From SAR86 cluster bacterium AG-422-O05 (GTDB lineage Bacteria; Pseudomonadota; Gammaproteobacteria; Magnimaribacterales; D2472): 64,000 bases of DNA. The stretch is from NCBI GenBank assembly GCA_003213495.1, contig QCMW01000002.1, forward strand, positions 4,303 through 68,302, written 5' to 3'. Every line of letters begins with the position of its first letter. Position 1 is the stretch's first letter. The notes beneath the pieces are model-generated. The model was given only the letters and a program-made list of their open reading frames with translations, did not search any database and was not told where the DNA came from. Below, piece after piece: positions 27,095 to 57,532 of the stretch. Position numbers and translations under genes: made by a program.

Positions 27095-27823
27095 ATGAAG
27101 ATTTTTGTTGATGGAGCATGTATCGATCAATATACAAAAAAAATTGCGAATTATCTAAATTTAGAAATTATAAGGAATGAGCCAGATAGCAACCATCTTC
27201 TATACAATGAAAAAGGACTTTCATATGTAAGCACCTCATCAAAAAATAAATCTATTCTTCATATTAATTTTTTAAAAGGTAGTTTGGGCTGGAGGATTAA
27301 GAGGTCTGAACATGAATCAAGTTTAAAAAAAGCAATTGGTAAACATTCACATCAGCTAACTATCTTTGATGCCACAGCCGGTCAACTCAATGATTCATTG
27401 ATCTTTTTGTCTTTAGGACACAAAGTTGTCGCAGTTGAGCAAAGTAAAATATTATATTTACTAGTTAGTGATGCAATTAAAAGAGCTGGTAAAGAACTCC
27501 CAATTTTAAATAATCTTAAATTTGTAAATGGCAACTCTATAGAGATATTTAAGAAAGATAATAATCAATTTGATTTAATATATTTAGATCCAATGTATCC
27601 AATTGTTAAGAAAAACGTTAAAAGATCAGGAAACTTAAACTGTATTAAGGAGATTTTATCTTTTGAGAATCTCATGAATCATGGAGATAACTTAATTGAA
27701 GATTTTATGAATTTAAAGTGCAAAAAAATTATCCTAAAAAGACCTTTAAAATCTAAAAATAATTATAGTAATATTAATTATCAGATAAAAGGAAAAGCAA
27801 TAAGATACGATGTTTTTTTATGA
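27095..27823 (+). CDS. rsmJ: 16S rRNA (guanine1516-N2)-methyltransferase RsmJ-like
   Basis: DATAGQLNDSLIFLSLGHKVVAVE, YLDPMYP and ILKRP parallel E. coli RsmJ ([31 protein letters not shown], VVKRP). Confidence 0.8.
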   Translation: MKIFVDGACIDQYTKKIANYLNLEIIRNEPDSNHLLYNEKGLSYVSTSSKNKSILHINFLKGSLGWRIKRSEHESSLKKAIGKHSHQLTIFDATAGQLNDSLIFLSLGHKVVAVEQSKILYLLVSDAIKRAGKELPILNNLKFVNGNSIEIFKKDNNQFDLIYLDPMYPIVKKNVKRSGNLNCIKEILSFENLMNHGDNLIEDFMNLKCKKIILKRPLKSKNNYSNINYQIKGKAIRYDVFL

Positions 27824-28890
27824 TAGAGCTTAAAGAAGATTCAATTATTTTTTCAATAAATAGCAATGATGTTTATGATTTACCTTTTCTGTGGTTTAGA
27901 GATAACTGTCAGTGTGATAAGTGCAGAATAACCGAATCCCAAGAGAAGCAATTTTTATTAAATACAGTACCATTAGGCATTAAACCTGTTAAAGCTTTAG
28001 AAGCTGAGGATTCCTTTTTAATAACATGGGAAGACAGTCATAAAACAATTATCCCTTTTGAGGTTATTAATAATTCTTTACAAAGTAGATATCCTAAGCA
28101 TCAATCATGGCCAAAAAACTTTATACCAAAAAAAATTGATTGGGATAGTTTTTTAAATGAAAAAAATATAGCTCTTAATGGATTAAAAGAATTTGTAAAG
28201 CATGGCGTAATAATCTTGAAGAATGCCCCAAAGGAATCTGAGACCCTTGAAAAATTATCTATAAGGCTTGGTCCAATTCATGAAACACTTTTTGAAAGAA
28301 TTCATAATGTCTCAGTAACTGGACATGTTTACAATGTGGCGCATACATCAAAAGGATTGCCGCCCCATAATGATTTTGCTAGTTATATATCACAGCCAAG
28401 TGTTCAAGCTCTTCATATGCTTGAGAATGAATGTGAGGGTGGAGAATCAGTAATAGTTGATGGCTGGGAATTGATAGAAGATTTAAGAGAAGATCACTCA
28501 GATTATTTTGAAACACTATGTAAATTTGAGGTACCTTTTAGAGAATTTGATCAGGAGAATGAAACTTATGCAGAAGCCCCTTTAATAAAATGTGCATCTG
28601 ATGGCTCTATTGAAAGCTTTAGATTTTCAAATCAGTTAATGCAAATGATAAGCCCCTCAAAAAAAGGCATAAAAGAATTTTATAAAGCATATCATGAACT
28701 TTCTACCAGAGTATTCGATTCCAAGTATCGTTCTTCATTTAGGTTGCATGGAGGAGAGGTGCTTATAGTGGCTAGTTTAAGAGTTTTACATGCGCGGGAA
28801 TCTTTTATACCTAATGGTAAAAGACACTTACAGGATGCATATTTTGTATACGACAATGCTGCTAATAATATAGTACTTCTATCAAATTAA
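27820..28890 (+). CDS. gamma-butyrobetaine/trimethyllysine hydroxylase-like Fe(II)/2-oxoglutarate dioxygenase
   Basis: The N-terminal Cys-rich DUF971-like segment is LWFRDNCQCDKC. The TauD-fold core has an HND facial-triad motif (PPHNDFASY) and a distal LHARE. Confidence 0.75.
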   Translation: MIELKEDSIIFSINSNDVYDLPFLWFRDNCQCDKCRITESQEKQFLLNTVPLGIKPVKALEAEDSFLITWEDSHKTIIPFEVINNSLQSRYPKHQSWPKNFIPKKIDWDSFLNEKNIALNGLKEFVKHGVIILKNAPKESETLEKLSIRLGPIHETLFERIHNVSVTGHVYNVAHTSKGLPPHNDFASYISQPSVQALHMLENECEGGESVIVDGWELIEDLREDHSDYFETLCKFEVPFREFDQENETYAEAPLIKCASDGSIESFRFSNQLMQMISPSKKGIKEFYKAYHELSTRVFDSKYRSSFRLHGGEVLIVASLRVLHARESFIPNGKRHLQDAYFVYDNAANNIVLLSN

Positions 28891-29426: not shown

Positions 29427-29446
29427 ATGCGGCCAATAGGCCGCAT
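29427..29446. terminator. bidirectional hairpin between convergent genes
   Basis: ATGCGGCC-AATA-GGCCGCAT is a perfect 8-bp GC-rich stem, with an A-run upstream and T-rich sequence downstream. Confidence 0.8.
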
Positions 29447-29471: not shown

Positions 29472-31370
29472 TTAGTAACTATCATCACTATCATTGCTAC
29501 CTGCAACATAATGAGATTTTGGTTTGAATTTAGTATCACTGGACGCAGATTCCGCTCCGTGATAACCCTGATCACCAGGCATATAAAATGTTAGGCCAGG
29601 ATATTCAATGAAAGTATGAGTATGTTCAGAACCACCTTGTGAGGTGAGGTATACCTTATATGTGAATCCTGAAGCTCCTTTAAAAGGCCCTGTGGATACC
29701 GTACCCTTTACTTGCAATGCACCTGAATTATTTTCTACATCAATAAGATTTTGGTCGAATTGAGTAACTTTAACTATCTTACTATTAGAGTACATTCCAC
29801 TATGAAATTCACAATGTGGATAAATTGTGTCAGGCGTATTTGAGTTAACTGTAAGAGTTAGTGTATCTTTGTTCCAGCCCTCCATTGCACCAATATCATT
29901 ACTGCTATCCATATCGTTATTTTCAGTAGACATCAAAAAAGGATGACCAGAAGTAACTGATGAAGTAGCTTCAAATTTAATCGTATCTCCTTCTCTAACA
30001 TATATTATAAATTCAGTATCTTTCGCATTTACATTATCAACAATGTAATTACTACTTCCATTATTTGCTAATGTATAAGTTGTGGTATTCATATCTTCTT
30101 CATTGTCAGTTATGGGACCACCGTCCCATGATGTGTTTTCGTTGATCCAATTTATGGTGTTAAACACTAATTTATCTATTTCATCTGCGTTAGCAGTATC
30201 GTTCATTACAGACTGCATCAAAGCTTTAAGCTCTGACACACCAGCTTTTGCAAAATGCGAGTGGGAATTAGAGGAGTTTGCATTTATTTTTTGCATATAA
30301 GCTGATATGCCAGCAGAAAGATTTACTAACTGATCACTGGAAGGGGAGAAATCAGTATCTAAGTTTGTTAGCAAATCCTTTATGAAAGTTGTATCGCCTA
30401 AACTTGTTTCTGTGCCAGATCTTGTATAAATGGCATTAGCAACTTTATTAGCTGCACTGTCACCACTAAAAGTATGAATACCTTTAATAACTTCATGTAA
30501 AACCAATAGTTGCGTATTTACAACAGCTGCCTTATTACTTGAAGCTGAACCAAGACTATCAAAAGGATTATCAAATCTGATCATAAAGCTGGAATCCAGA
30601 CCAAGCTTTTGTTTAAAAGTTTCATAATCTGTACTTCCACTACTGTCATATTCGTTCATAAGTGTGCTTAAAGGTGAAACGACAAAGTTTTGGCTTGTAA
30701 CAGGTTGACCCAGCGCAAGACTGTTATCATCGTTAAATTGAAGATTTGTAACAGGGTCAAATCCACCTTCACCACGAAGAACACCAGTAGTGCCTGAGTC
30801 AACTGTTATTGAGAAGGAACCATCTTGTGCGGTAGTAGCCGTATACTGTGCCCCTGTGCAAGTTCCGGCAGTTACTTCGATACATACTGTGGCACCTTGA
30901 ATGGGACCAGCTCCTATATAAGTACCGTCATATCCTTCAGTAGTTACATCATCAGAAGTGTCATTCGTGACGGTAACTGTAAAATCTTTGGAATCATTTA
31001 ATGATCCATCTGACACTGAAGCCATGAGATCATAAACGTTATTTCCGTCAGCGTCCGATGGTGATTCAAAATCTGGCGCTGTGTTAAAAGTTACCACTCC
31101 TGAAGTTGATACCGTAAATAATGATGCATCACTACCCCCAATTGTGAAAGTAAGAGCATCACCGTCAGCATCAGTAGCAGTAATTGTGAATGCAGATGTT
31201 TGATTTTCTACAACTGAGTAGCTTGTTGTTGAATTTGTTATTGTTGGTGCATTGTTAGCTGGTGGAGCGGGTGGTTGATAATCGCTACCACCGCCACCGC
31301 CACCGCCACCGCCACATGAGACGACAACGAAAGATATAGCTAACAGAACTACCCTGTTAAAAGTATTCAT
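29472..31370 (-). CDS. lipoprotein: Gly9 tether + cadherin-like repeat + helical middle region + cupredoxin (type-1 Cu) domain
   Basis: Lipobox ...VVVSC is followed by GGGGGGGGG. The cadherin-like module is TATDADGDALTFTIGG...APDFESPSDADGNNVYDL. The cupredoxin ligands are H(29943-45)...C(29811-13)-x2-H-x2-M(29793-95) in ...SGHPF...YPHCEFHSGM.... An AGGAG SD sequence is present. Confidence 0.85.
   Translation of the reverse strand: MNTFNRVVLLAISFVVVSCGGGGGGGGGSDYQPPAPPANNAPTITNSTTSYSVVENQTSAFTITATDADGDALTFTIGGSDASLFTVSTSGVVTFNTAPDFESPSDADGNNVYDLMASVSDGSLNDSKDFTVTVTNDTSDDVTTEGYDGTYIGAGPIQGATVCIEVTAGTCTGAQYTATTAQDGSFSITVDSGTTGVLRGEGGFDPVTNLQFNDDNSLALGQPVTSQNFVVSPLSTLMNEYDSSGSTDYETFKQKLGLDSSFMIRFDNPFDSLGSASSNKAAVVNTQLLVLHEVIKGIHTFSGDSAANKVANAIYTRSGTETSLGDTTFIKDLLTNLDTDFSPSSDQLVNLSAGISAYMQKINANSSNSHSHFAKAGVSELKALMQSVMNDTANADEIDKLVFNTINWINENTSWDGGPITDNEEDMNTTTYTLANNGSSNYIVDNVNAKDTEFIIYVREGDTIKFEATSSVTSGHPFLMSTENNDMDSSNDIGAMEGWNKDTLTLTVNSNTPDTIYPHCEFHSGMYSNSKIVKVTQFDQNLIDVENNSGALQVKGTVSTGPFKGASGFTYKVYLTSQGGSEHTHTFIEYPGLTFYMPGDQGYHGAESASSDTKFKPKSHYVAGSNDSDDSY
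31287..31313 (-). repeat. in-frame (GGT GGC)n microsatellite encoding Gly9
   Basis: The plus strand reads ACCACCGCCACCGCCACCGCCACCGCC, which is 4.5 copies of a 6-nt unit immediately after the lipobox Cys codon. Confidence 0.9.
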
Positions 31371-31499
31371 TTTTTCTCCTTTTAGTTCGTTTGCCGGGCG
31401 TCTGTAGTGTGTAAGAGTAAATCGTGCCCAATTTAGTCAAGACTACAGCAAGGCGACTTGATGTAGCGTGTATAATATATTTATTGATAATTTTGTCAA
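31371..31499 (-). promoter_or_regulatory. candidate promoter (TTGACA-N16-TATTAT) plus a ~95-nt relatively GC-rich structured 5' leader of the cupredoxin lipoprotein gene
   Basis: -35 at 31499-31494 and -10 at 31477-31472 (minus strand). The leader contains CUACA/CUGUAG/ACUACAG segments able to form mutually exclusive helices, plus GGGC/GCCC pairing. Confidence 0.4.
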
Positions 31500-31612
31500 A
31501 ATATTTTTAAAGCCTATATTTAAAGTATTTTAAGGCTATATATTTTGTAGCTTTACTACAAATTATAAATTTTTTGGTTTAAATTTTGAAGCAACTTATA
31601 ATTTTGTTATTC

Positions 31613-33457
31613 ATGAATTATATGATTAAAAGTTCCGACATATTTTCTAATATTTTTATAATATTTTTCTTATATTCCTGTGGCGGAGGTGGATCTTCAG
31701 ATATTGAGGATTTGCAGAATAATTTAGTTTCAATCAATTTAACTGGATTGAAGTCACCAAGTTATAGCTATGAAAATCAAACTATAAATATTTCTTCGAA
31801 TATTTCTGAATGCAGCTTTAGGGTTGCTCTTAAAGATGAAGTCTTTCATAAATTACATCATGTTAATACTGAGGATAATAAAAAATTTATTTTTAGAAAC
31901 CCAATATCACTAATATCGACTGAGAATTTTCAAGTAAATATTTCTACTATTTCAAATGACAGCTGTCCTGAAGCAGAAAGAACTTTTAATTTGCAAGTTG
32001 ATAAGTATCCAACACAATACAATCTTATTCCGTCTAATATAAATGATACAAAAACTGATTTCTATGAAGTTGAAAATGTTGGATTCGGTGGAATTATTAT
32101 TACTGAAACATTCAGTGCAACAATATGTTATCCAACTCCAAATGATTGTATAACCCATGAAAATTCATTATTTGGACAAGATGCACATAATATGGTGCAG
32201 GGTGACTTTAATGGTGACGGTCATGAAGACTTCGCAGTAGCATGGGCATTTTTTCCTCATACAATTGAGCCATCACAAAAAGTAAATGCACCATTAAATA
32301 TATTCTTAAATGATGGTAATGGAAGGTTTGCAGAGGATTTAAATATTTATGAAATTGGAGAGGCACCAACCCATCCATTTGCATACAGAACTATTGCAGC
32401 TGATTTTAATAATGATGGCATAGATGATATTTTTTCAGGATCAATGGGAATTCAATATAGATCTGAGAATTATAGTGAAAACTTTATAAATCCATATCCG
32501 CACTTACTATTGCTATCTAATGCTAATGGGAAGTTTGAAGATAAATCTAATCAAATTGAAGATCAAAATAATGGTAATGGCCAGTTATGTAACTTTGCTC
32601 ATGACTCAAGTGCTGGCGATCCTGACGCAGATGGGGATATAGATGTTTTTGCATGTAATATTTTAAATATTAATGATGGACAGGGTAATTTTACGACTCA
32701 TGAATATATCAATTTAGACTGGCAAAGAGAGAATCAATATGGAAATCCAATGTCTTCTATCATGACAGATTTAAATAATGATTCTTATGATGATATTATT
32801 TTTTGGAACTTTGATAACAGAAGTAGTTGGTCAAGTTCAGATGAGGGATATATTTTGCTAAGCAATGGTTCATCAAAAATAGAAAATTGGACGAAAATTC
32901 CATTACCAGCTGGACCATTTGGCTTTGATAAAAATAAATATAACCATGCTGCTGCTGGAGATATTAATAATGATGGATTTATGGATGTGGTTGTTGCAAT
33001 AACAAGAGATTTACCATATTACGAGGGGGCATATATTCAAATTCTATTTAACAATGGTTTAGGAGAGTTAATTGATATGACTGAATCCAGCTTTTCAGAC
33101 CAGCCCAGATCTGCTACTCATCATGGAGAAGGAAATATATACTTAAGAGATATGAATCTTGATGGAAGTCTTGATATTGTTCATTCAACTAGAGACTATA
33201 ATAGTGGATATCATGGTTCACATATTGCTATTAATGATGGGATGGGCAACTTTACTTCTATTGAAAATTCAAAATTACCGGATAAACCAGATCCTGGACA
33301 CAACAATTATGATTTTTTAATGAAGGCTTTGCCAATTAATGCTGATAAAGAAGCATGCTTAGACTTTATTTCAGTCACAGATGCAGGATGGGAGGATAAT
33401 CAAAATGAAACTAGTAATTATTTCTTTACTGTTTTAAATATAAATTGCGACTTTTAA
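31613..33457 (+). CDS. lipoprotein with FG-GAP/VCBS (integrin-alpha-like) beta-propeller repeats
   Basis: The start is trimmed from TTG 31586 to ATG 31613 (or 31622). Lipobox FLYSC is followed by GGGGSS. There are six DxNxDGxxD-type repeats (DFNGDGHEDF, DFNNDGIDDI, DPDADGDIDV, DLNNDSYDDI, DINNDGFMDV, DMNLDGSLDI). Confidence 0.85.
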   Translation: MNYMIKSSDIFSNIFIIFFLYSCGGGGSSDIEDLQNNLVSINLTGLKSPSYSYENQTINISSNISECSFRVALKDEVFHKLHHVNTEDNKKFIFRNPISLISTENFQVNISTISNDSCPEAERTFNLQVDKYPTQYNLIPSNINDTKTDFYEVENVGFGGIIITETFSATICYPTPNDCITHENSLFGQDAHNMVQGDFNGDGHEDFAVAWAFFPHTIEPSQKVNAPLNIFLNDGNGRFAEDLNIYEIGEAPTHPFAYRTIAADFNNDGIDDIFSGSMGIQYRSENYSENFINPYPHLLLLSNANGKFEDKSNQIEDQNNGNGQLCNFAHDSSAGDPDADGDIDVFACNILNINDGQGNFTTHEYINLDWQRENQYGNPMSSIMTDLNNDSYDDIIFWNFDNRSSWSSSDEGYILLSNGSSKIENWTKIPLPAGPFGFDKNKYNHAAAGDINNDGFMDVVVAITRDLPYYEGAYIQILFNNGLGELIDMTESSFSDQPRSATHHGEGNIYLRDMNLDGSLDIVHSTRDYNSGYHGSHIAINDGMGNFTSIENSKLPDKPDPGHNNYDFLMKALPINADKEACLDFISVTDAGWEDNQNETSNYFFTVLNINCDF

Positions 33458-55411: not shown

Positions 55412-55430
55412 AAATATATATCAAAAGTAA

Positions 55431-55456
55431 AAGAGGGCTTTTTAGCCCTCTTTTTT
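55431..55456 (+). terminator. rho-independent terminator after the TonB-dependent receptor
   Basis: AAGAGGGC-TTTTTA-GCCCTCTT is followed by a T-run. Confidence 0.85.
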
Positions 55457-55468
55457 ATTTGTATAAGA

Positions 55469-55474
55469 TATAAT
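55469..55474 (+). promoter_or_regulatory. TATAAT hexamer 6 nt upstream of ATG 55481 (possible leaderless start)
   Basis: Read directly. There is no SD between the hexamer and the ATG. Confidence 0.3.
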
Positions 55475-55480
55475 TTGTAT

Positions 55481-57532
55481 ATGAATATTCTTAGGATATT
55501 TATTGTTATATTTTTTATTGTTTCCTGTGGTGGAGGCGGAGGAGGCGGCAGTGCACCCCCAGCTCCATTTGCAATAACTCTTGCATCAAGCACTTCTATA
55601 TCAGTTGATGAAGATACTACATACACAGGTAATGTAGTTGCAACTGCTAATGAGCCTGTAACACTTGAATATGCACTTGTTTCTTCAACAACAAATGGAA
55701 TCCTTACTTTTTTGACAACTGGAGCTATCACTTATACTCCCAATGAAAATTTTAATGGGCAAGATGAATTTTCTTATTCTGTTACTGCAGTCGAAAAAAG
55801 CATTACAAGAAATAGCACAGTTACAATTACAGTTAATTCTGTAAACGATTTGCCACAGATATCATTAGATTCAAAATTAAATTTAGACAAAGATCATCTT
55901 ATTTTTGAAAATAATCCTACATTTTCTGTTTCGTTTTCAGATGTTGATAATATAGATACAGATTTTAGTTTTAGTGCATCTATAAACTCGGAAAATGTTG
56001 GAGCAACTTTTACTTCAACTGGTGATGGTCAAGGAGATATAGTTCTAGATTTATCAACTCTATCTAAAGCAGGTTTATTCAATGCGGAAATTATAATATC
56101 TGATGGTATGGATACCGCTAGTGATTCATTTAATACATGGTTCATATCTAATAAACAAACCGTTACTGTTGCTCAAGATGACGACAAAAGTGATGGTTTT
56201 GATTCTGGCACCACAACAAATAAAGATTATTATGTGTATTATCTTGTTGGAGGTGGCTCAACCTTTGGAAGAACTGATTACTTGTTTGTTGCTGATTCAT
56301 TAAAAGCAGACCCTAATGATGGAACGTTATCTGATACTGATAGTTTTAGAGAAGCTTTACTGAAATCCATTAATGCTCTTAATGATTCAGATGCTTCTGA
56401 ATTTTTTACAGGCTATTTTGATATTGTTGTTGCAGAGCCAGTAAGTCCTGATGGAACTTCTTTAGCATCTATTGAAACAGGTTGTTATGACTGGGATGAG
56501 GATGTTTATTGCATTGGCTCTGGCGATATAAATGATTCTGTTTTTGATGATCTGTTTGCTGAACATGATTTAGTCTCAGTCCTAACAATGATAGATGGCA
56601 GAGGAGTGAATTTGGGTAACACTAACATTCAAGAAATCAAACCTAGAACAGAATATACTTTAATGCATGAGTTGGGTCATGCACATGGTGAAATGGGAGA
56701 CGAATATATAACTACTGACGATAGAGATGTCAGTCAATGGGCAGATAGAAATGTTAATACGACAACACAGGCAGATCCATCATTAGTTAAATGGAATCAT
56801 CACATATCAGACTTTATGAATGTAGCGGGAAAAGACTTTAAGGTTTGTTATAACTATGCAGATGGATCTATTTATGACGAGGGTGAGGATGCAACTACAT
56901 GCGACTGTTTGTTCAATTTATATGATGCAAATGGAAATAGAACTGGTAGAAATCCAGAATGCGATGTTGTTGGCCTTTTTGAAGGAAATTATTATGGGGA
57001 GTTTGATAATTATAGGCCAAAATACTGGACTATTATGGAGGGCGGTATTTTAAAATATGGTGAGGTTAATACTGAAGGTTTCGCAATAGGATCAATTCAT
57101 AACCAGGGTTTTTTATATGGTGATGAGGTAGGTTTTGTCACCGATGAGTCGGGGGCTAGAACTGGTTTTGAAATAGATATTGATGTTGTATATGATAATT
57201 CTAAGTTAAGACTTAAATGGTATATAAATGGTGTTGAGGATCCATCAAAAGAAAATCAAACAAGAATAGTATTTGATAGACCGACCAATAATACTGTGCA
57301 AATTTATACATGGAAAGTTGATGATCTTACTGGAACTGTTACAGCACCCGACGACGTAACTGATGTAAATGATTTTTATGAAGGATTATTTAATTCTGAT
57401 TTTTACTGGTGTGACAGAACAAGTGGCTCATGTCAGTGGGGCTATAACCCAACGGATCAATCCCAATATCATTATGGTTATGTAACTGGTCCAATGGGAG
57501 GGACCTGGGGTATTAATTGGTCAAGGTGGTAA
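55481..57532 (+). CDS. lipoprotein: Gly7 tether + Ig/cadherin-like (tandem-95-type) modules + M64-like zinc metalloprotease domain
   Basis: The start is trimmed from TTG 55475 to ATG 55481. Lipobox FIVSC is followed by GGGGGGG. The Ig-like module is ...VDEDTTYTGNV...ITYTPNENFNGQDEFSYSV...VNSVNDLPQ. The zincin motif is HELGHAHGEMGDEY (56666-56707). Confidence 0.8.
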   Translation: MNILRIFIVIFFIVSCGGGGGGGSAPPAPFAITLASSTSISVDEDTTYTGNVVATANEPVTLEYALVSSTTNGILTFLTTGAITYTPNENFNGQDEFSYSVTAVEKSITRNSTVTITVNSVNDLPQISLDSKLNLDKDHLIFENNPTFSVSFSDVDNIDTDFSFSASINSENVGATFTSTGDGQGDIVLDLSTLSKAGLFNAEIIISDGMDTASDSFNTWFISNKQTVTVAQDDDKSDGFDSGTTTNKDYYVYYLVGGGSTFGRTDYLFVADSLKADPNDGTLSDTDSFREALLKSINALNDSDASEFFTGYFDIVVAEPVSPDGTSLASIETGCYDWDEDVYCIGSGDINDSVFDDLFAEHDLVSVLTMIDGRGVNLGNTNIQEIKPRTEYTLMHELGHAHGEMGDEYITTDDRDVSQWADRNVNTTTQADPSLVKWNHHISDFMNVAGKDFKVCYNYADGSIYDEGEDATTCDCLFNLYDANGNRTGRNPECDVVGLFEGNYYGEFDNYRPKYWTIMEGGILKYGEVNTEGFAIGSIHNQGFLYGDEVGFVTDESGARTGFEIDIDVVYDNSKLRLKWYINGVEDPSKENQTRIVFDRPTNNTVQIYTWKVDDLTGTVTAPDDVTDVNDFYEGLFNSDFYWCDRTSGSCQWGYNPTDQSQYHYGYVTGPMGGTWGINWSRW

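What the first reader, a model, noticed from the sequence alone, without database searches (positions are those of the whole stretch)
29472..31370. Lipoprotein fusing a cadherin-like repeat to a cupredoxin with a complete type-1 copper site
Seen: the 632-aa minus-strand ORF starts MNTFNRVVLLAISFVVVSC followed by nine Gly. Residues ~40-140 form a cadherin-like repeat (TITATDADGDALTFTIGG...APDFESPSDADGNNVYDL...VTVTNDTSDD). Near the C-terminus (about nt 30080-29760), ...GDTIKFEATSSVTSGHPFLMS-(43 residues between His and Cys)-IYPHCEFHSGMYSNSKIVKV gives His(29943-29945)...Cys(29811-29813)-x2-His-x2-Met(29793-29795). A His/Met-containing tail follows (SEHTHTF, YMPGDQGYHG). Established: His...Cys-x2-His-x2-Met with about 40-47 residues between the first His and the Cys is the blue-copper ligand set of cupredoxins. 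The short C-x2-H-x2-M loop is the amicyanin type. Inference: this is a membrane-tethered, probably surface- or periplasm-facing, blue-copper electron-transfer module on an adhesin-like stalk. I know of no characterised protein with this architecture. Possible roles are extracellular or periplasmic redox chemistry on metals or organics, or copper handling.
Basis: partly seen in the sequence, partly recalled or inferred. Interest (0 to 1): 0.65.

Follow-up and report, generated by a model that had tools for sequence, protein, structure and literature searches.

The report
SAR86 lipoprotein with blue-copper domain
A conserved, uncharacterised lipoprotein of the abundant marine SAR86 bacteria carries a blue-copper-type (cupredoxin) domain with all four copper ligands intact, followed by a second invariant His/Met module, and the same copper-domain subfamily also sits, undescribed, on tail fibres of marine cyanophages.

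Summary
The 632-aa minus-strand ORF, the lipobox (Cys19 + Gly9), the cadherin-like repeat and His476...Cys520-x2-His523-x2-Met526 are all at the stated coordinates. The cupredoxin reading is supported. A broad profile of the domain hits solved cupredoxins almost exclusively (best E=1.1e-5). An AlphaFold model (pLDDT 88.6) places the ligands in canonical cupredoxin positions. The four ligands are essentially invariant in about 280 homologues and 127 distant domain copies. Pfam does not recognise the window's own domain. I could not measure ligand geometry because model coordinates are not exposed.

- The "His/Met tail" is a separate conserved domain with an invariant H583-x-H585/M597/H604 set. 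It has no known relative and is probably a second metal site.
- The copper domain belongs to a subfamily found in tail-fibre/baseplate proteins of about 360 marine cyanophage genomes, ligands intact, with no literature found.
- The cadherin stalk is a generic SAR86 lipoprotein scaffold.

The gene is a syntenic core gene across SAR86 and reaches Halieaceae. In two lineages it lies next to peroxidase-type genes. Best reading: an outer-membrane-tethered type-1 copper redox protein, analogous to Laz, with a second metal site. Its function is unproven. It is a new variant of a known kind.

The parts
29472..31370 (-). Whole gene, 632 codons plus stop; monocistronic lipoprotein gene of a SAR86-cluster bacterium
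   Evidence: orthologues in 65 genome loci
31314..31370 (-). Signal peptide with lipobox VVS-C19 (residues 1-19)
   Evidence: Read directly from the sequence. Cys19 is present in 180/180 homologues covering it. A lipobox followed by poly-Gly is found in all complete orthologues.
31254..31313 (-). Gly9 / Pro-rich flexible linker (residues 20-39)
   Evidence: G21-G23 invariant
30948..31253 (-). Cadherin-like repeat (residues ~40-141)
   Evidence: Family profile vs PDB: Cdhr2 E=1.1e-9, cadherin-23, protocadherin-15. Pfam Cadherin is below cutoff in the window and above it in P0121.
30687..30923 (-). Ig-like beta-sandwich (residues ~150-228), weak CarboxypepD_reg-like match; C163/C171 pair conserved in 81% of orthologues
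   Evidence: Pfam E=0.0012-0.0076, below cutoff; conservation
30135..30674 (-). All-helical domain (residues ~233-412); no detectable relative
   Evidence: AlphaFold model helices 233-412, pLDDT mostly 80-95; no Pfam or PDB hit
29769..30086 (-). Cupredoxin domain (residues ~429-534), eight beta-strands
   Evidence: Model. Broad profile hits PDB cupredoxins, E=1.1e-5. phrog_677 E=8.3e-10. Foldseek hits to cyanophage tail-fibre domains, E down to 3.6e-7.
29943..29945 (-). His476, first type-1 copper ligand
   Evidence: 267/267 conserved; 132/133 in distant domain copies
29793..29813 (-). Cys520-x2-His523-x2-Met526 ligand loop. Cys ends strand 515-520, His and Met lie in the loop before strand 530-534.
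   Evidence: aligned without gaps to amicyanin Cys92/His95/Met98 and to the CsiHpyM loop of PDB 6hbe
29511..29717 (-). C-terminal HxH...M...H module (residues ~552-620): small beta module with invariant H583, H585, M597, H604 (H620 in 88%); probable second metal site
   Evidence: stand-alone copies in unrelated proteins; no Pfam or PDB relative; pLDDT 84-97
29475..29510 (-). Low-complexity acidic/Ser spacer ending in a conserved C-terminal Tyr632
   Evidence: 49 of 58 orthologues end in Tyr and 1 in Phe; pLDDT <50
29427..29446 (-). Terminator-like GC-rich hairpin (8 bp, 6 GC) followed by a T-run, shared with the convergent gene
31472..31499 (-). Promoter-like site TTGACA-16-TATTAT (11/12), ~100 bp upstream of the ATG. 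Consensus match only; site counts are not above shuffles.

Best explanation
The gene encodes a lipoprotein of a SAR86-cluster gammaproteobacterium. After lipidation at Cys19 it is most likely tethered to the outer membrane, because Gly at +2 gives no inner-membrane retention signal under the E. coli rule. A Gly9 linker, one cadherin-like repeat and an Ig-like sandwich act as a stalk that SAR86 also uses for other lipoproteins. The stalk carries a compact ~400-residue head made of a helical domain, a cupredoxin domain and a small beta module. The cupredoxin domain binds one type-1 copper through His476, Cys520, His523 and Met526, with the amicyanin-length ligand loop. The beta module offers a second, equally invariant His583-x-His585/Met597/His604 set that probably holds a second metal ion. 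The most likely mechanism is that the type-1 copper cycles between Cu(I) and Cu(II) and passes single electrons between an envelope partner and either the second site or an external acceptor. This makes it a tethered extracytoplasmic redox protein in the manner of Neisseria Laz, possibly linked to peroxide or oxidant defence. Shown: the ORF, the lipobox, domain homologies, ligand identity and conservation, and synteny. Inferred: copper binding, redox role, orientation, partner, and metal at the second site.
For: ORF, lipobox and coordinates. Cupredoxin homology: a 42-sequence domain profile hits almost only cupredoxins in PDB (Cu nitrite reductase 6hbe E=1.1e-5, multicopper oxidase 3g5w 1.3e-4, laccases, plastocyanin 1.8e-3, pseudoazurin, amicyanin 0.03). 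hhalign against amicyanin gives E=5.9e-4 with C/H/M on Cys92/His95/Met98. Family members hit PF25489 (19/42), PF00127 (6/42) and PF13473 (2/42). Structure: AlphaFold with an 89-sequence alignment gives pLDDT 88.6 and pTM 0.84, with eight strands, Cys520 at the end of the seventh strand, and His523/Met526 in the loop to the eighth. The top Foldseek PDB hits are rusticyanin, small laccases and SufI, though weak (E>=0.11). Conservation: 8 of the 28 His/Cys/Met positions (start Met and lipobox Cys included) are 100% conserved in 59 orthologues at 28-96% identity, and they are exactly the two ligand clusters. This also holds over 285 homologues and 127 distant domain copies. The gene is a syntenic core gene in about 35 SAR86 loci and is present in 65 species-level genomes including Halieaceae. 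Context hints: katG is directly upstream and a Redoxin/AhpC-TSA gene downstream in 4 SAR86 species. A two-CxxCH lipoprotein with a weak CCP_MauG match is directly upstream in Halieaceae. Precedent: Laz is an outer-membrane-tethered lipoprotein cupredoxin that faces the periplasm (PMC6277709), and papers cited in PMC10094543 name it as electron donor of the bacterial cytochrome c peroxidase.
Confidence: 0.5

Rival explanations
1. Structural or binding module. The H...CxxHxxM domain is a metal-stabilised extracellular beta-sandwich used for attachment or rigidity, as its presence on phage tail fibres and baseplates suggests. The SAR86 protein would then be a surface adhesin or receptor-like lipoprotein, and copper (or zinc) only stabilises the fold.
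For: The window's domain matches phrog_677 'baseplate wedge tail fiber protein connector' at E=8.3e-10, and 39/42 family members match it. There are 29 significant Foldseek hits to cyanophage tail-fibre/virion proteins, RMSD 2.3-3 A. 360 phage records carry the domain in tail-fibre/baseplate CDS with ligands intact. Many cellular relatives carry 2-3 tandem copies or collagen repeats. The protein also has a cadherin-like repeat.
Against: Near-absolute conservation of a Cys-His-Met redox-type ligand set is unusual for a purely structural site. A purely structural module could drop the site, as the related domain of P0222 has done, yet every SAR86/Halieaceae copy keeps it. The cadherin stalk is generic to SAR86 lipoproteins. 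A second invariant metal-type site lies next to the domain.
Confidence: 0.2
2. Copper handling. This would be a CopI-like envelope protein that captures or buffers copper using a cupredoxin site plus a His/Met site, protecting a surface-ocean cell from copper toxicity or supplying copper to cuproenzymes.
For: The architecture, cupredoxin plus His/Met-bearing region, parallels CopI as described in PMC13308877. The second site has a His3Met composition typical of copper sites.
Against: No copA, cusABC, copRS or other copper-resistance genes lie nearby in any lineage examined. The His/Met module is a folded domain with four fixed residues, not a repetitive Met/His-rich capture region. Sequence homology to CopI was not tested.
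Confidence: 0.15
3. Metal oxidase for uptake. The type-1 copper would oxidise Fe(II), Cu(I) or Mn(II) bound at the His3Met site, as proposed for the cupredoxin components of the EfeUOB and FtrABCD iron-uptake systems.
For: A type-1 site lies beside a second mononuclear metal-type site in one rigid head (pTM 0.84). FtrB is described as a periplasmic cupredoxin of an Fe(II) transporter (PMC11966278). From my own recall, the M597-x6-H604 spacing resembles the Met-x6-His of the P19/FetP copper site; I did not test this.
Against: No Ftr1/EfeU-type permease or P19 gene is adjacent. There is no Pfam match to Iron_transport, EfeO or imelysin families. The only imelysin fold hit is insignificant (E=2.3).
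Confidence: 0.1
4. Chance motif in a non-metal protein.
For: Pfam gives no cupredoxin hit for the window sequence.
Against: The motif is expected 0.005 times per shuffled window. The ligands are invariant over 28-96% identity and in distant domains. There is profile homology to cupredoxins.
Confidence: 0.02

Closest known systems
Laz, lipid-modified azurin of Neisseria
   Same: A lipoprotein with a flexible low-complexity linker after the lipid-modified Cys that carries a type-1 copper cupredoxin. It is tethered to the outer membrane and acts as an envelope electron carrier (PMC6277709; references in PMC10094543).
   Different: Laz is about 180 aa with an azurin-type domain recognised by PF00127. 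From my own knowledge, it has a longer ligand loop. It has no cadherin repeat, helical domain or second His/Met module. The SAR86 domain is not an azurin by sequence.
Amicyanin
   Same: Identical shortest ligand loop C-x2-H-x2-M, with a gap-free alignment of Cys92/His95/Met98.
   Different: Only marginal overall similarity (E=0.03 in the profile search; hhalign probability 29%). No methylamine dehydrogenase genes nearby. Amicyanin is a soluble ~105-aa single-domain protein.
Cyanophage tail-fibre / baseplate 'connector' domain (PHROG 677, 30742, 15006 and others)
   Same: Same domain subfamily by sequence (E=8.3e-10) and by predicted structure, with the same H...C-x2-H-x2-M set conserved.
   Different: The phage proteins are virion structural proteins. 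The SAR86 copy is a divergent branch (20-35% identity) embedded in a lipoprotein head with a helical domain and a His3Met module. No function or metal content has been reported for the phage domain.
Copper nitrite reductase with fused cupredoxin (PDB 6hbe), and multicopper oxidases
   Same: Best sequence-profile matches in PDB (E=1.1e-5 and 1.3e-4). The ligand loop aligns to the CsiHpyM of 6hbe's extra cupredoxin domain. Both combine a type-1 copper with a second metal centre.
   Different: There is no conserved His adjacent to the Cys (His519 is H/Y/R), so the Cys-His bridge to a type-2 or trinuclear site is absent. There is only one cupredoxin domain, and no trimer-interface type-2 ligands.
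CopI (cupredoxin-like copper-tolerance protein)
   Same: A cupredoxin-like site combined with His/Met-bearing regions in an envelope protein (PMC13308877 abstract).
   Different: CopI's His/Met regions are described as rich, flexible regions. Here the site is a folded module with four fixed residues, and there is no copper-resistance gene context. Homology was not tested.

Membership tests
Cupredoxin superfamily | Detectable sequence or profile homology to known cupredoxins | tested here: met
   Profile A3 vs PDB returns almost exclusively cupredoxins, best E=1.1e-5. hhalign vs amicyanin gives E=5.9e-4. Family members hit PF00127, PF13473 and PF25489.
Cupredoxin superfamily | Curated Pfam cupredoxin model matches the window's own sequence above the gathering score | tested here: not met
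   No cupredoxin family is listed even at E<=10, and none for the isolated domain (member 1).
Cupredoxin superfamily | Greek-key beta-sandwich fold of about eight strands | tested here: inconclusive
Type-1 (blue) copper site | His ... Cys-xn-His-xm-Met in order, with Cys at the end of the penultimate strand and His/Met in the loop to the last strand | tested here: met
   H476, C520, H523, M526. Cys520 ends strand 515-520, the loop holds H523/M526, and the next strand is 530-534.
Type-1 (blue) copper site | Ligands conserved among homologues | tested here: met
   267/267, 279/279, 277/279 and 278/279; 100% in 59 genome orthologues; near-invariant in 127 distant copies.
Type-1 (blue) copper site | The four side chains converge on one point in 3D | not testable with these tools
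   Structure prediction returns no coordinates.
Type-1 (blue) copper site | Binds copper with a ~600 nm LMCT band and narrow A-parallel EPR | not testable with these tools
   Needs expression and spectroscopy.
Amicyanin | C-x2-H-x2-M ligand loop | tested here: met
Amicyanin | Close sequence similarity, and association with methylamine dehydrogenase (mau) genes | tested here: not met
   E=0.03 only. Neighbours are housekeeping genes.
Laz-type lipid-modified cupredoxin | Lipobox followed by a flexible linker and a type-1 copper domain | tested here: met
Laz-type lipid-modified cupredoxin | Azurin-family domain | tested here: not met
   No PF00127 hit for the window sequence; azurin is absent from the 60 PDB hits shown.
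Cadherin repeat | Homology to cadherin extracellular repeats | tested here: met
   Family profile: Cdhr2 E=1.1e-9, cadherin-23 and protocadherin-15 at 1e-7 to 1e-5. P0121 passes the Pfam cutoff. The window sequence alone is below it.
Multicopper oxidase / Cu nitrite reductase | Conserved His next to the type-1 Cys that bridges to a type-2 or trinuclear copper site | tested here: not met
   Position 519 is His 194, Tyr 81, Arg 3, Val 1.
Phage tail-fibre/baseplate H...CxxHxxM domain (PHROG 677 etc.) | Significant match to the PHROG profile and to predicted phage structures | tested here: met
   E=8.3e-10; Foldseek BFVD E down to 3.6e-7.
CopI | Sequence homology and copper-resistance gene context | not tested
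   No CopI sequence was at hand. The context shows no copper-resistance genes.

The most novel reading that the evidence does not exclude
The head is a new kind of two-centre extracytoplasmic copper oxidoreductase. An amicyanin-loop type-1 copper would feed electrons to a previously undescribed His-x-His/Met/His metal domain, displayed on a lipoprotein stalk by one of the most abundant bacterial groups in the surface ocean. It would act on peroxide, superoxide or dissolved metals. The same intact type-1 domain on hundreds of cyanophage tail fibres would mean that copper-dependent, possibly redox-dependent, chemistry is part of phage-host recognition in the sea.
Probability: 0.15. Interest if true: 0.85.

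Novelty: new variant of a known kind. Interest (0 to 1): 0.6.

Why it matters
SAR86 is among the most abundant heterotrophic bacterial groups in the surface ocean and has a streamlined genome. A 632-aa lipoprotein kept at the same locus across the clade, and also found in Halieaceae, is likely to matter for its physiology, yet it carries no annotation. If it is a tethered copper redox protein, it adds a copper requirement and an envelope redox activity (oxidant defence or metal redox chemistry) to models of SAR86 ecology. For bioinorganic chemistry it offers an unstudied cupredoxin subfamily with the shortest ligand loop, no solved structure and no Pfam recognition, plus a new candidate His3Met metal domain. 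The by-product may matter most: the same ligand-intact domain sits on tail fibres and baseplates of about 360 marine cyanophage genomes, and I found no published description of this.

Tried and rejected
- Single-sequence AlphaFold of the full protein failed (pLDDT 31.6).
- Direct sequence searches of PDB with the C-terminal 217 aa and with the narrow orthologue profile A1 found nothing meaningful. Only the broad domain profile worked.
- A multicopper-oxidase/nitrite-reductase-like His-Cys bridge was rejected because His519 is not conserved.
- An imelysin/EfeO-like reading of the helical domain was rejected: the only fold hit has E=2.3, H292 is not conserved, and Pfam finds nothing.
- A YHYH-domain or P19/Iron_transport identity for the C-terminal module got no Pfam hit even at E<=10, and no PDB hit with profile A5.
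- The last large-database search, with A5, returned only short fragments and no names.
- 'Rosetta-stone' coupling of the two modules was rejected. The only other protein with both (P0222) has lost Cys/His/Met in its cupredoxin-like domain.
- There is no riboswitch or known RNA in the flanks, and no c-type cytochrome or second H...CxxHxxM domain in the window.
- Promoter-like sites are not enriched over shuffles.
- Literature searches for SAR86 + copper/cupredoxin and for cupredoxin + tail fiber + phage found nothing relevant. The P-SSM2 genome paper does not mention such a domain.
Full report
1. THE OBSERVATION

The window holds a 632-codon ORF on the minus strand at 29472..31370. It begins MNTFNRVVLLAISFVVVSC followed by nine Gly. 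The pattern H-x(38-48)-C-x2-H-x2-M occurs once in the six-frame translation of the window. It occurs 0.005 times per shuffled window.

2. ORGANISM AND GENE STATUS

The window has 32.7% GC, and the flanking genes are housekeeping genes in gammaproteobacterial order: lepA, lepB, acpS, adk, bacA, a SAM methyltransferase, a TauD-family gene and DUF2805 on one side; an FG-GAP lipoprotein, queA, tgt, yajC and secDF on the other.

A scan of one genome per species found relatives in 65 loci. Most are labelled SAR86 cluster (SAR86A, B, E, the TMED112 complete genome). Seven to nine are Halieaceae/Luminiphilus at 35-39% identity. Nearly all loci hold a full-length orthologue of about 630 aa. In about 35 SAR86 loci the gene occupies the same slot between DUF2805/orf100 and queA.

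The protein database holds more than 1,700 related sequences. The top 120 are at least 98% identical and come from marine metagenomes, on contigs of up to 1.3 Mb. So this is a vertically inherited core gene of an abundant lineage. No source gives it an informative name; the only name is a JGI automatic label 'plastocyanin' on one fragment.

It looks monocistronic. There is an 11/12 sigma-70-like site about 100 bp upstream, although such sites are not enriched over shuffles. A GC-rich hairpin with a T-run sits just after the stop codon. No Rfam family matches the flanks.

3. ANATOMY

(a) Signal peptide and lipobox. Every complete orthologue has [LVI][AST][AS]-Cys followed by a Gly run, and Cys19 is present in 180/180 sequences that cover it.

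(b) Cadherin-like repeat, residues ~40-141. Pfam Cadherin is below cutoff for the window sequence (16.5-19.9 bits vs 28.8), but orthologue P0121 passes (29.4 bits). A 30-sequence full-length profile hits solved cadherin repeats: Cdhr2 E=1.1e-9, then cadherin-23 and protocadherin-15.

(c) A beta-sandwich at ~150-228 with weak CarboxypepD_reg similarity.

(d) A helical domain at ~233-412 with no detectable relative.

(e) The putative cupredoxin domain at ~429-534.

(f) A C-terminal module at ~552-620.

(g) An acidic/Ser spacer ending in Tyr. 49 of 58 orthologues end in Tyr regardless of spacer length.

An AlphaFold model of residues 225-632, built with an 89-sequence alignment, is confident (pLDDT 88.6, pTM 0.84). 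The high pTM implies that parts d-f form one rigid head.

4. IS IT A CUPREDOXIN WITH A TYPE-1 SITE?

Pfam and NCBIfam do not recognise it, and sequence searches of PDB with the single sequence or the narrow orthologue profile fail. An exhaustive search of 1.8 billion representatives with residues 414-632 returned 133 hits. Many distant ones align only to the putative cupredoxin segment. In 127 domain copies from those proteins the four positions are His 132/133, Cys 131/131, His 132/132 and Met 130/134.

A 42-sequence profile of this domain (A3) searched against PDB returns almost only cupredoxins:
- copper nitrite reductase 6hbe, E=1.1e-5
- multicopper oxidase 3g5w, E=1.3e-4
- many laccases
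- plastocyanins from E=1.8e-3
- pseudoazurin, and amicyanin at E=0.03

In the 6hbe alignment the profile's YyqCqvHsgM lies on yiCsiHpyM. In that protein's first domain the profile His lies on the first His of vtHglsiH. From established knowledge of nitrite reductases, I take that His to be the type-1 ligand.

hhalign of A3 against amicyanin gives E=5.9e-4 and aligns C/H/M to Cys92/His95/Met98 without gaps. The amicyanin sequence was recalled from memory, and its numbering reproduces the canonical H53/C92/H95/M98. The first His is offset by two residues in a low-confidence stretch. Members of A3 hit PF25489 (19/42), PF00127 (6/42) and PF13473 (2/42).

In the model Cys520 ends strand 515-520, His523 and Met526 lie in the following loop, strand 530-534 follows, and His476 sits just before strand 478-481. 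pLDDT is 93-97 at all these places. That is the canonical cupredoxin placement.

Across 59 genome orthologues (28-96% identity, median 52%), 8 of the 28 His/Cys/Met positions (start Met and lipobox Cys included) are 100% conserved. They fall into two clusters: H476/C520/H523/M526 and H583/H585/M597/H604. Over 285 homologues the counts are 267/267, 279/279, 277/279, 278/279, 266/266, 265/266, 264/264 and 263/263.

I conclude with about 0.8 confidence that the domain is a copper-binding cupredoxin with a type-1-type site and the amicyanin-length loop.

5. THE C-TERMINAL MODULE

The 'His/Met tail' is a domain in its own right. Its signature, G[YF]xYP[LV]YL ... H-x-H-x-F-x-E-[YFH]-P-[GD]-x-x-F-Y-M-[PS] ... 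H-[GA], recurs without any cupredoxin in unrelated proteins. These include TIG-repeat giants of 4,856 and 3,455 aa. H-x-H, Met and the later His remain invariant in those copies.

In the model H583 and H585 lie on one strand (582-587), so they face the same side. M597 lies on the next strand (595-598), and H604 is in the following loop. That arrangement is plausible for a mononuclear metal site, but this is inference. No Pfam family or PDB chain matches, and the last big-database search added only fragments.

The one other protein with both modules has lost the copper ligands in its cupredoxin-like domain. So nothing independent supports functional coupling of the two modules.

6. THE PHAGE CONNECTION

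The model has 29 significant Foldseek matches in the viral structure library. Nearly all are cyanophage tail-fibre, baseplate or virion proteins. There are also giant-virus 'beta-sandwich' proteins. Typical values are RMSD 2.3-3 A over 110-120 residues at 20-27% identity.

The window's own domain matches phrog_677 'baseplate wedge tail fiber protein connector' at E=8.3e-10, and 39/42 family members match it. A typical family member finds 360 phage records by tblastn. Nearly all are Synechococcus or Prochlorococcus phages, and the matches lie under tail-fibre/baseplate CDS. In P-SSM2, Bellamy, S-SSM4 and the podovirus P-GSP1 the H...C-x2-H-x2-M set is intact.

No paper in the library contains 'cupredoxin', 'tail fiber' and 'phage' together, and the P-SSM2 genome paper does not mention such a domain. 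Because of this relationship a structural or binding role remains a live alternative.

7. CONTEXT CLUES TO FUNCTION

The same window has another CGGGGGG lipoprotein (55412-57529) with Ig/cadherin-like repeats and a Peptidase_M64 domain. Some SAR86 genomes carry, next to the orthologue, a paralogous lipoprotein with a lipobox, poly-Gly, a cadherin-like repeat, an unknown central domain and a C-terminal phage-type H...CxxHxxM domain. The stalk is therefore a generic display scaffold.

In four SAR86 species the gene lies directly downstream of katG and upstream of a Redoxin/AhpC-TSA gene, with a photolyase nearby. In five Halieaceae loci it lies directly downstream of a 1,107-aa lipoprotein with two CxxCH motifs, a weak CCP_MauG match (E=1.2e-4, below cutoff) and a CBM.

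Cupredoxins are established donors to bacterial dihaem peroxidases. Laz is the lipoprotein example: it is tethered to the outer membrane and faces the periplasm (PMC6277709; references in PMC10094543). These hints are weak. KatG has no signal peptide, and most genomes, including this one, show only housekeeping neighbours.

8. VERDICT

The most likely reading (0.5) is a tethered extracytoplasmic type-1 copper redox protein with a second metal site, analogous in principle to Laz but with a new architecture. The rivals are:
- a metal-stabilised structural or binding module (0.2)
- copper handling in the manner of CopI (0.15)
- a metal oxidase for uptake (0.1)
- a chance motif (0.02)

It is not a member of the azurin, amicyanin, multicopper-oxidase or nitrite-reductase families; in each case at least one defining feature was tested and not met. 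It is a member of the cupredoxin superfamily and of the subfamily shared with phage tail fibres. I rate it a new variant of a known kind, with interest 0.6.

Noticed in passing
L066 2584-4263 (P-SSM2 PSSM2_028), L067 568-2013 (Bellamy gp29), L068 1444-3300 (P-GSP1 PRQG_00035), L069 631-1809 (S-SSM4 CYXG_00061): Tail-fibre/baseplate proteins of marine cyanophages (about 360 phage records) carry the same cupredoxin-like domain with the H...C-x2-H-x2-M ligand set intact. I found no literature linking cupredoxins to phage tail fibres.
   Followed up: partly
proteins P0222 (1595-1661), P0242 (2488-2552), P0173 (324-404), P0189, P0223, P0236, P0239: The C-terminal HxH...FYM...H module of the target is a stand-alone domain in unrelated proteins, including TIG-repeat giants of 3,455-4,856 aa. 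It has no Pfam or PDB relative and is a candidate new metal-binding domain.
   Followed up: partly
L033 4387-6525 and 8676-9224 (also L040, L052, L055): In four SAR86 species the orthologue is flanked by katG (upstream, same strand) and a Redoxin/AhpC-TSA gene (downstream, same strand), with a DNA photolyase nearby. This looks like a light and oxidative-stress neighbourhood.
   Followed up: partly
L059 3135-6455 (also L061, L062, L064, L060): In Halieaceae a 1,107-aa CGGGGG lipoprotein lies directly upstream on the same strand. It has two CxxCH haem motifs, a sub-threshold dihaem cytochrome c peroxidase match and a CBM_4_9 domain, and could be a redox partner.
   Followed up: partly
L042 8792-10486 and L046 1023-2717; L034 8591-9910: Adjacent paralogous lipoproteins share the lipobox, poly-Gly and cadherin-like N-terminus. 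The L042/L046 copies end in a phage-type H...CxxHxxM domain after an unrecognised central domain.
   Followed up: partly
window 55412-57529 (+): A second lipoprotein with a CGGGGGG start carries Big_9/cadherin-like repeats and a Peptidase_M64 domain. The lipobox, poly-Gly and cadherin stalk appear to be a general SAR86 display scaffold.
   Followed up: partly
window 31586-33457 (+): The divergently transcribed neighbour is an FG-GAP-repeat lipoprotein (LYSCGGGGSS). It is adjacent to the target in only about a dozen SAR86 genomes, so it is not strictly linked.
   Followed up: partly
window 29475-29510 (-), residues 621-632: 49 of 58 orthologues end in Tyr, whether the protein stops at KSHY or after a 10-25 aa acidic/Ser spacer. 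This could be a sorting or docking signal.
   Followed up: no
window 30858-30884 (-), residues C163 and C171: A Cys pair in the Ig-like sandwich is conserved in 81% of orthologues and appears to be lost together, which suggests a disulfide and an oxidising compartment.
   Followed up: no
L031 (MAG labelled Candidatus Uhrbacteria) and L032 (MAG labelled Colwellia): These MAGs carry SAR86-type orthologues at 52-56% identity in the C-terminal region. The contigs are probably mis-binned rather than evidence of a wider taxonomic range.
   Followed up: no
window 27820-28890 (+) and the equivalent position in loci L003, L004, L006, L008, L017, L018 and others: The TauD/GBBH-like dioxygenase gene downstream of the target is present in some SAR86 genomes and absent from the same slot in others.
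   Followed up: no
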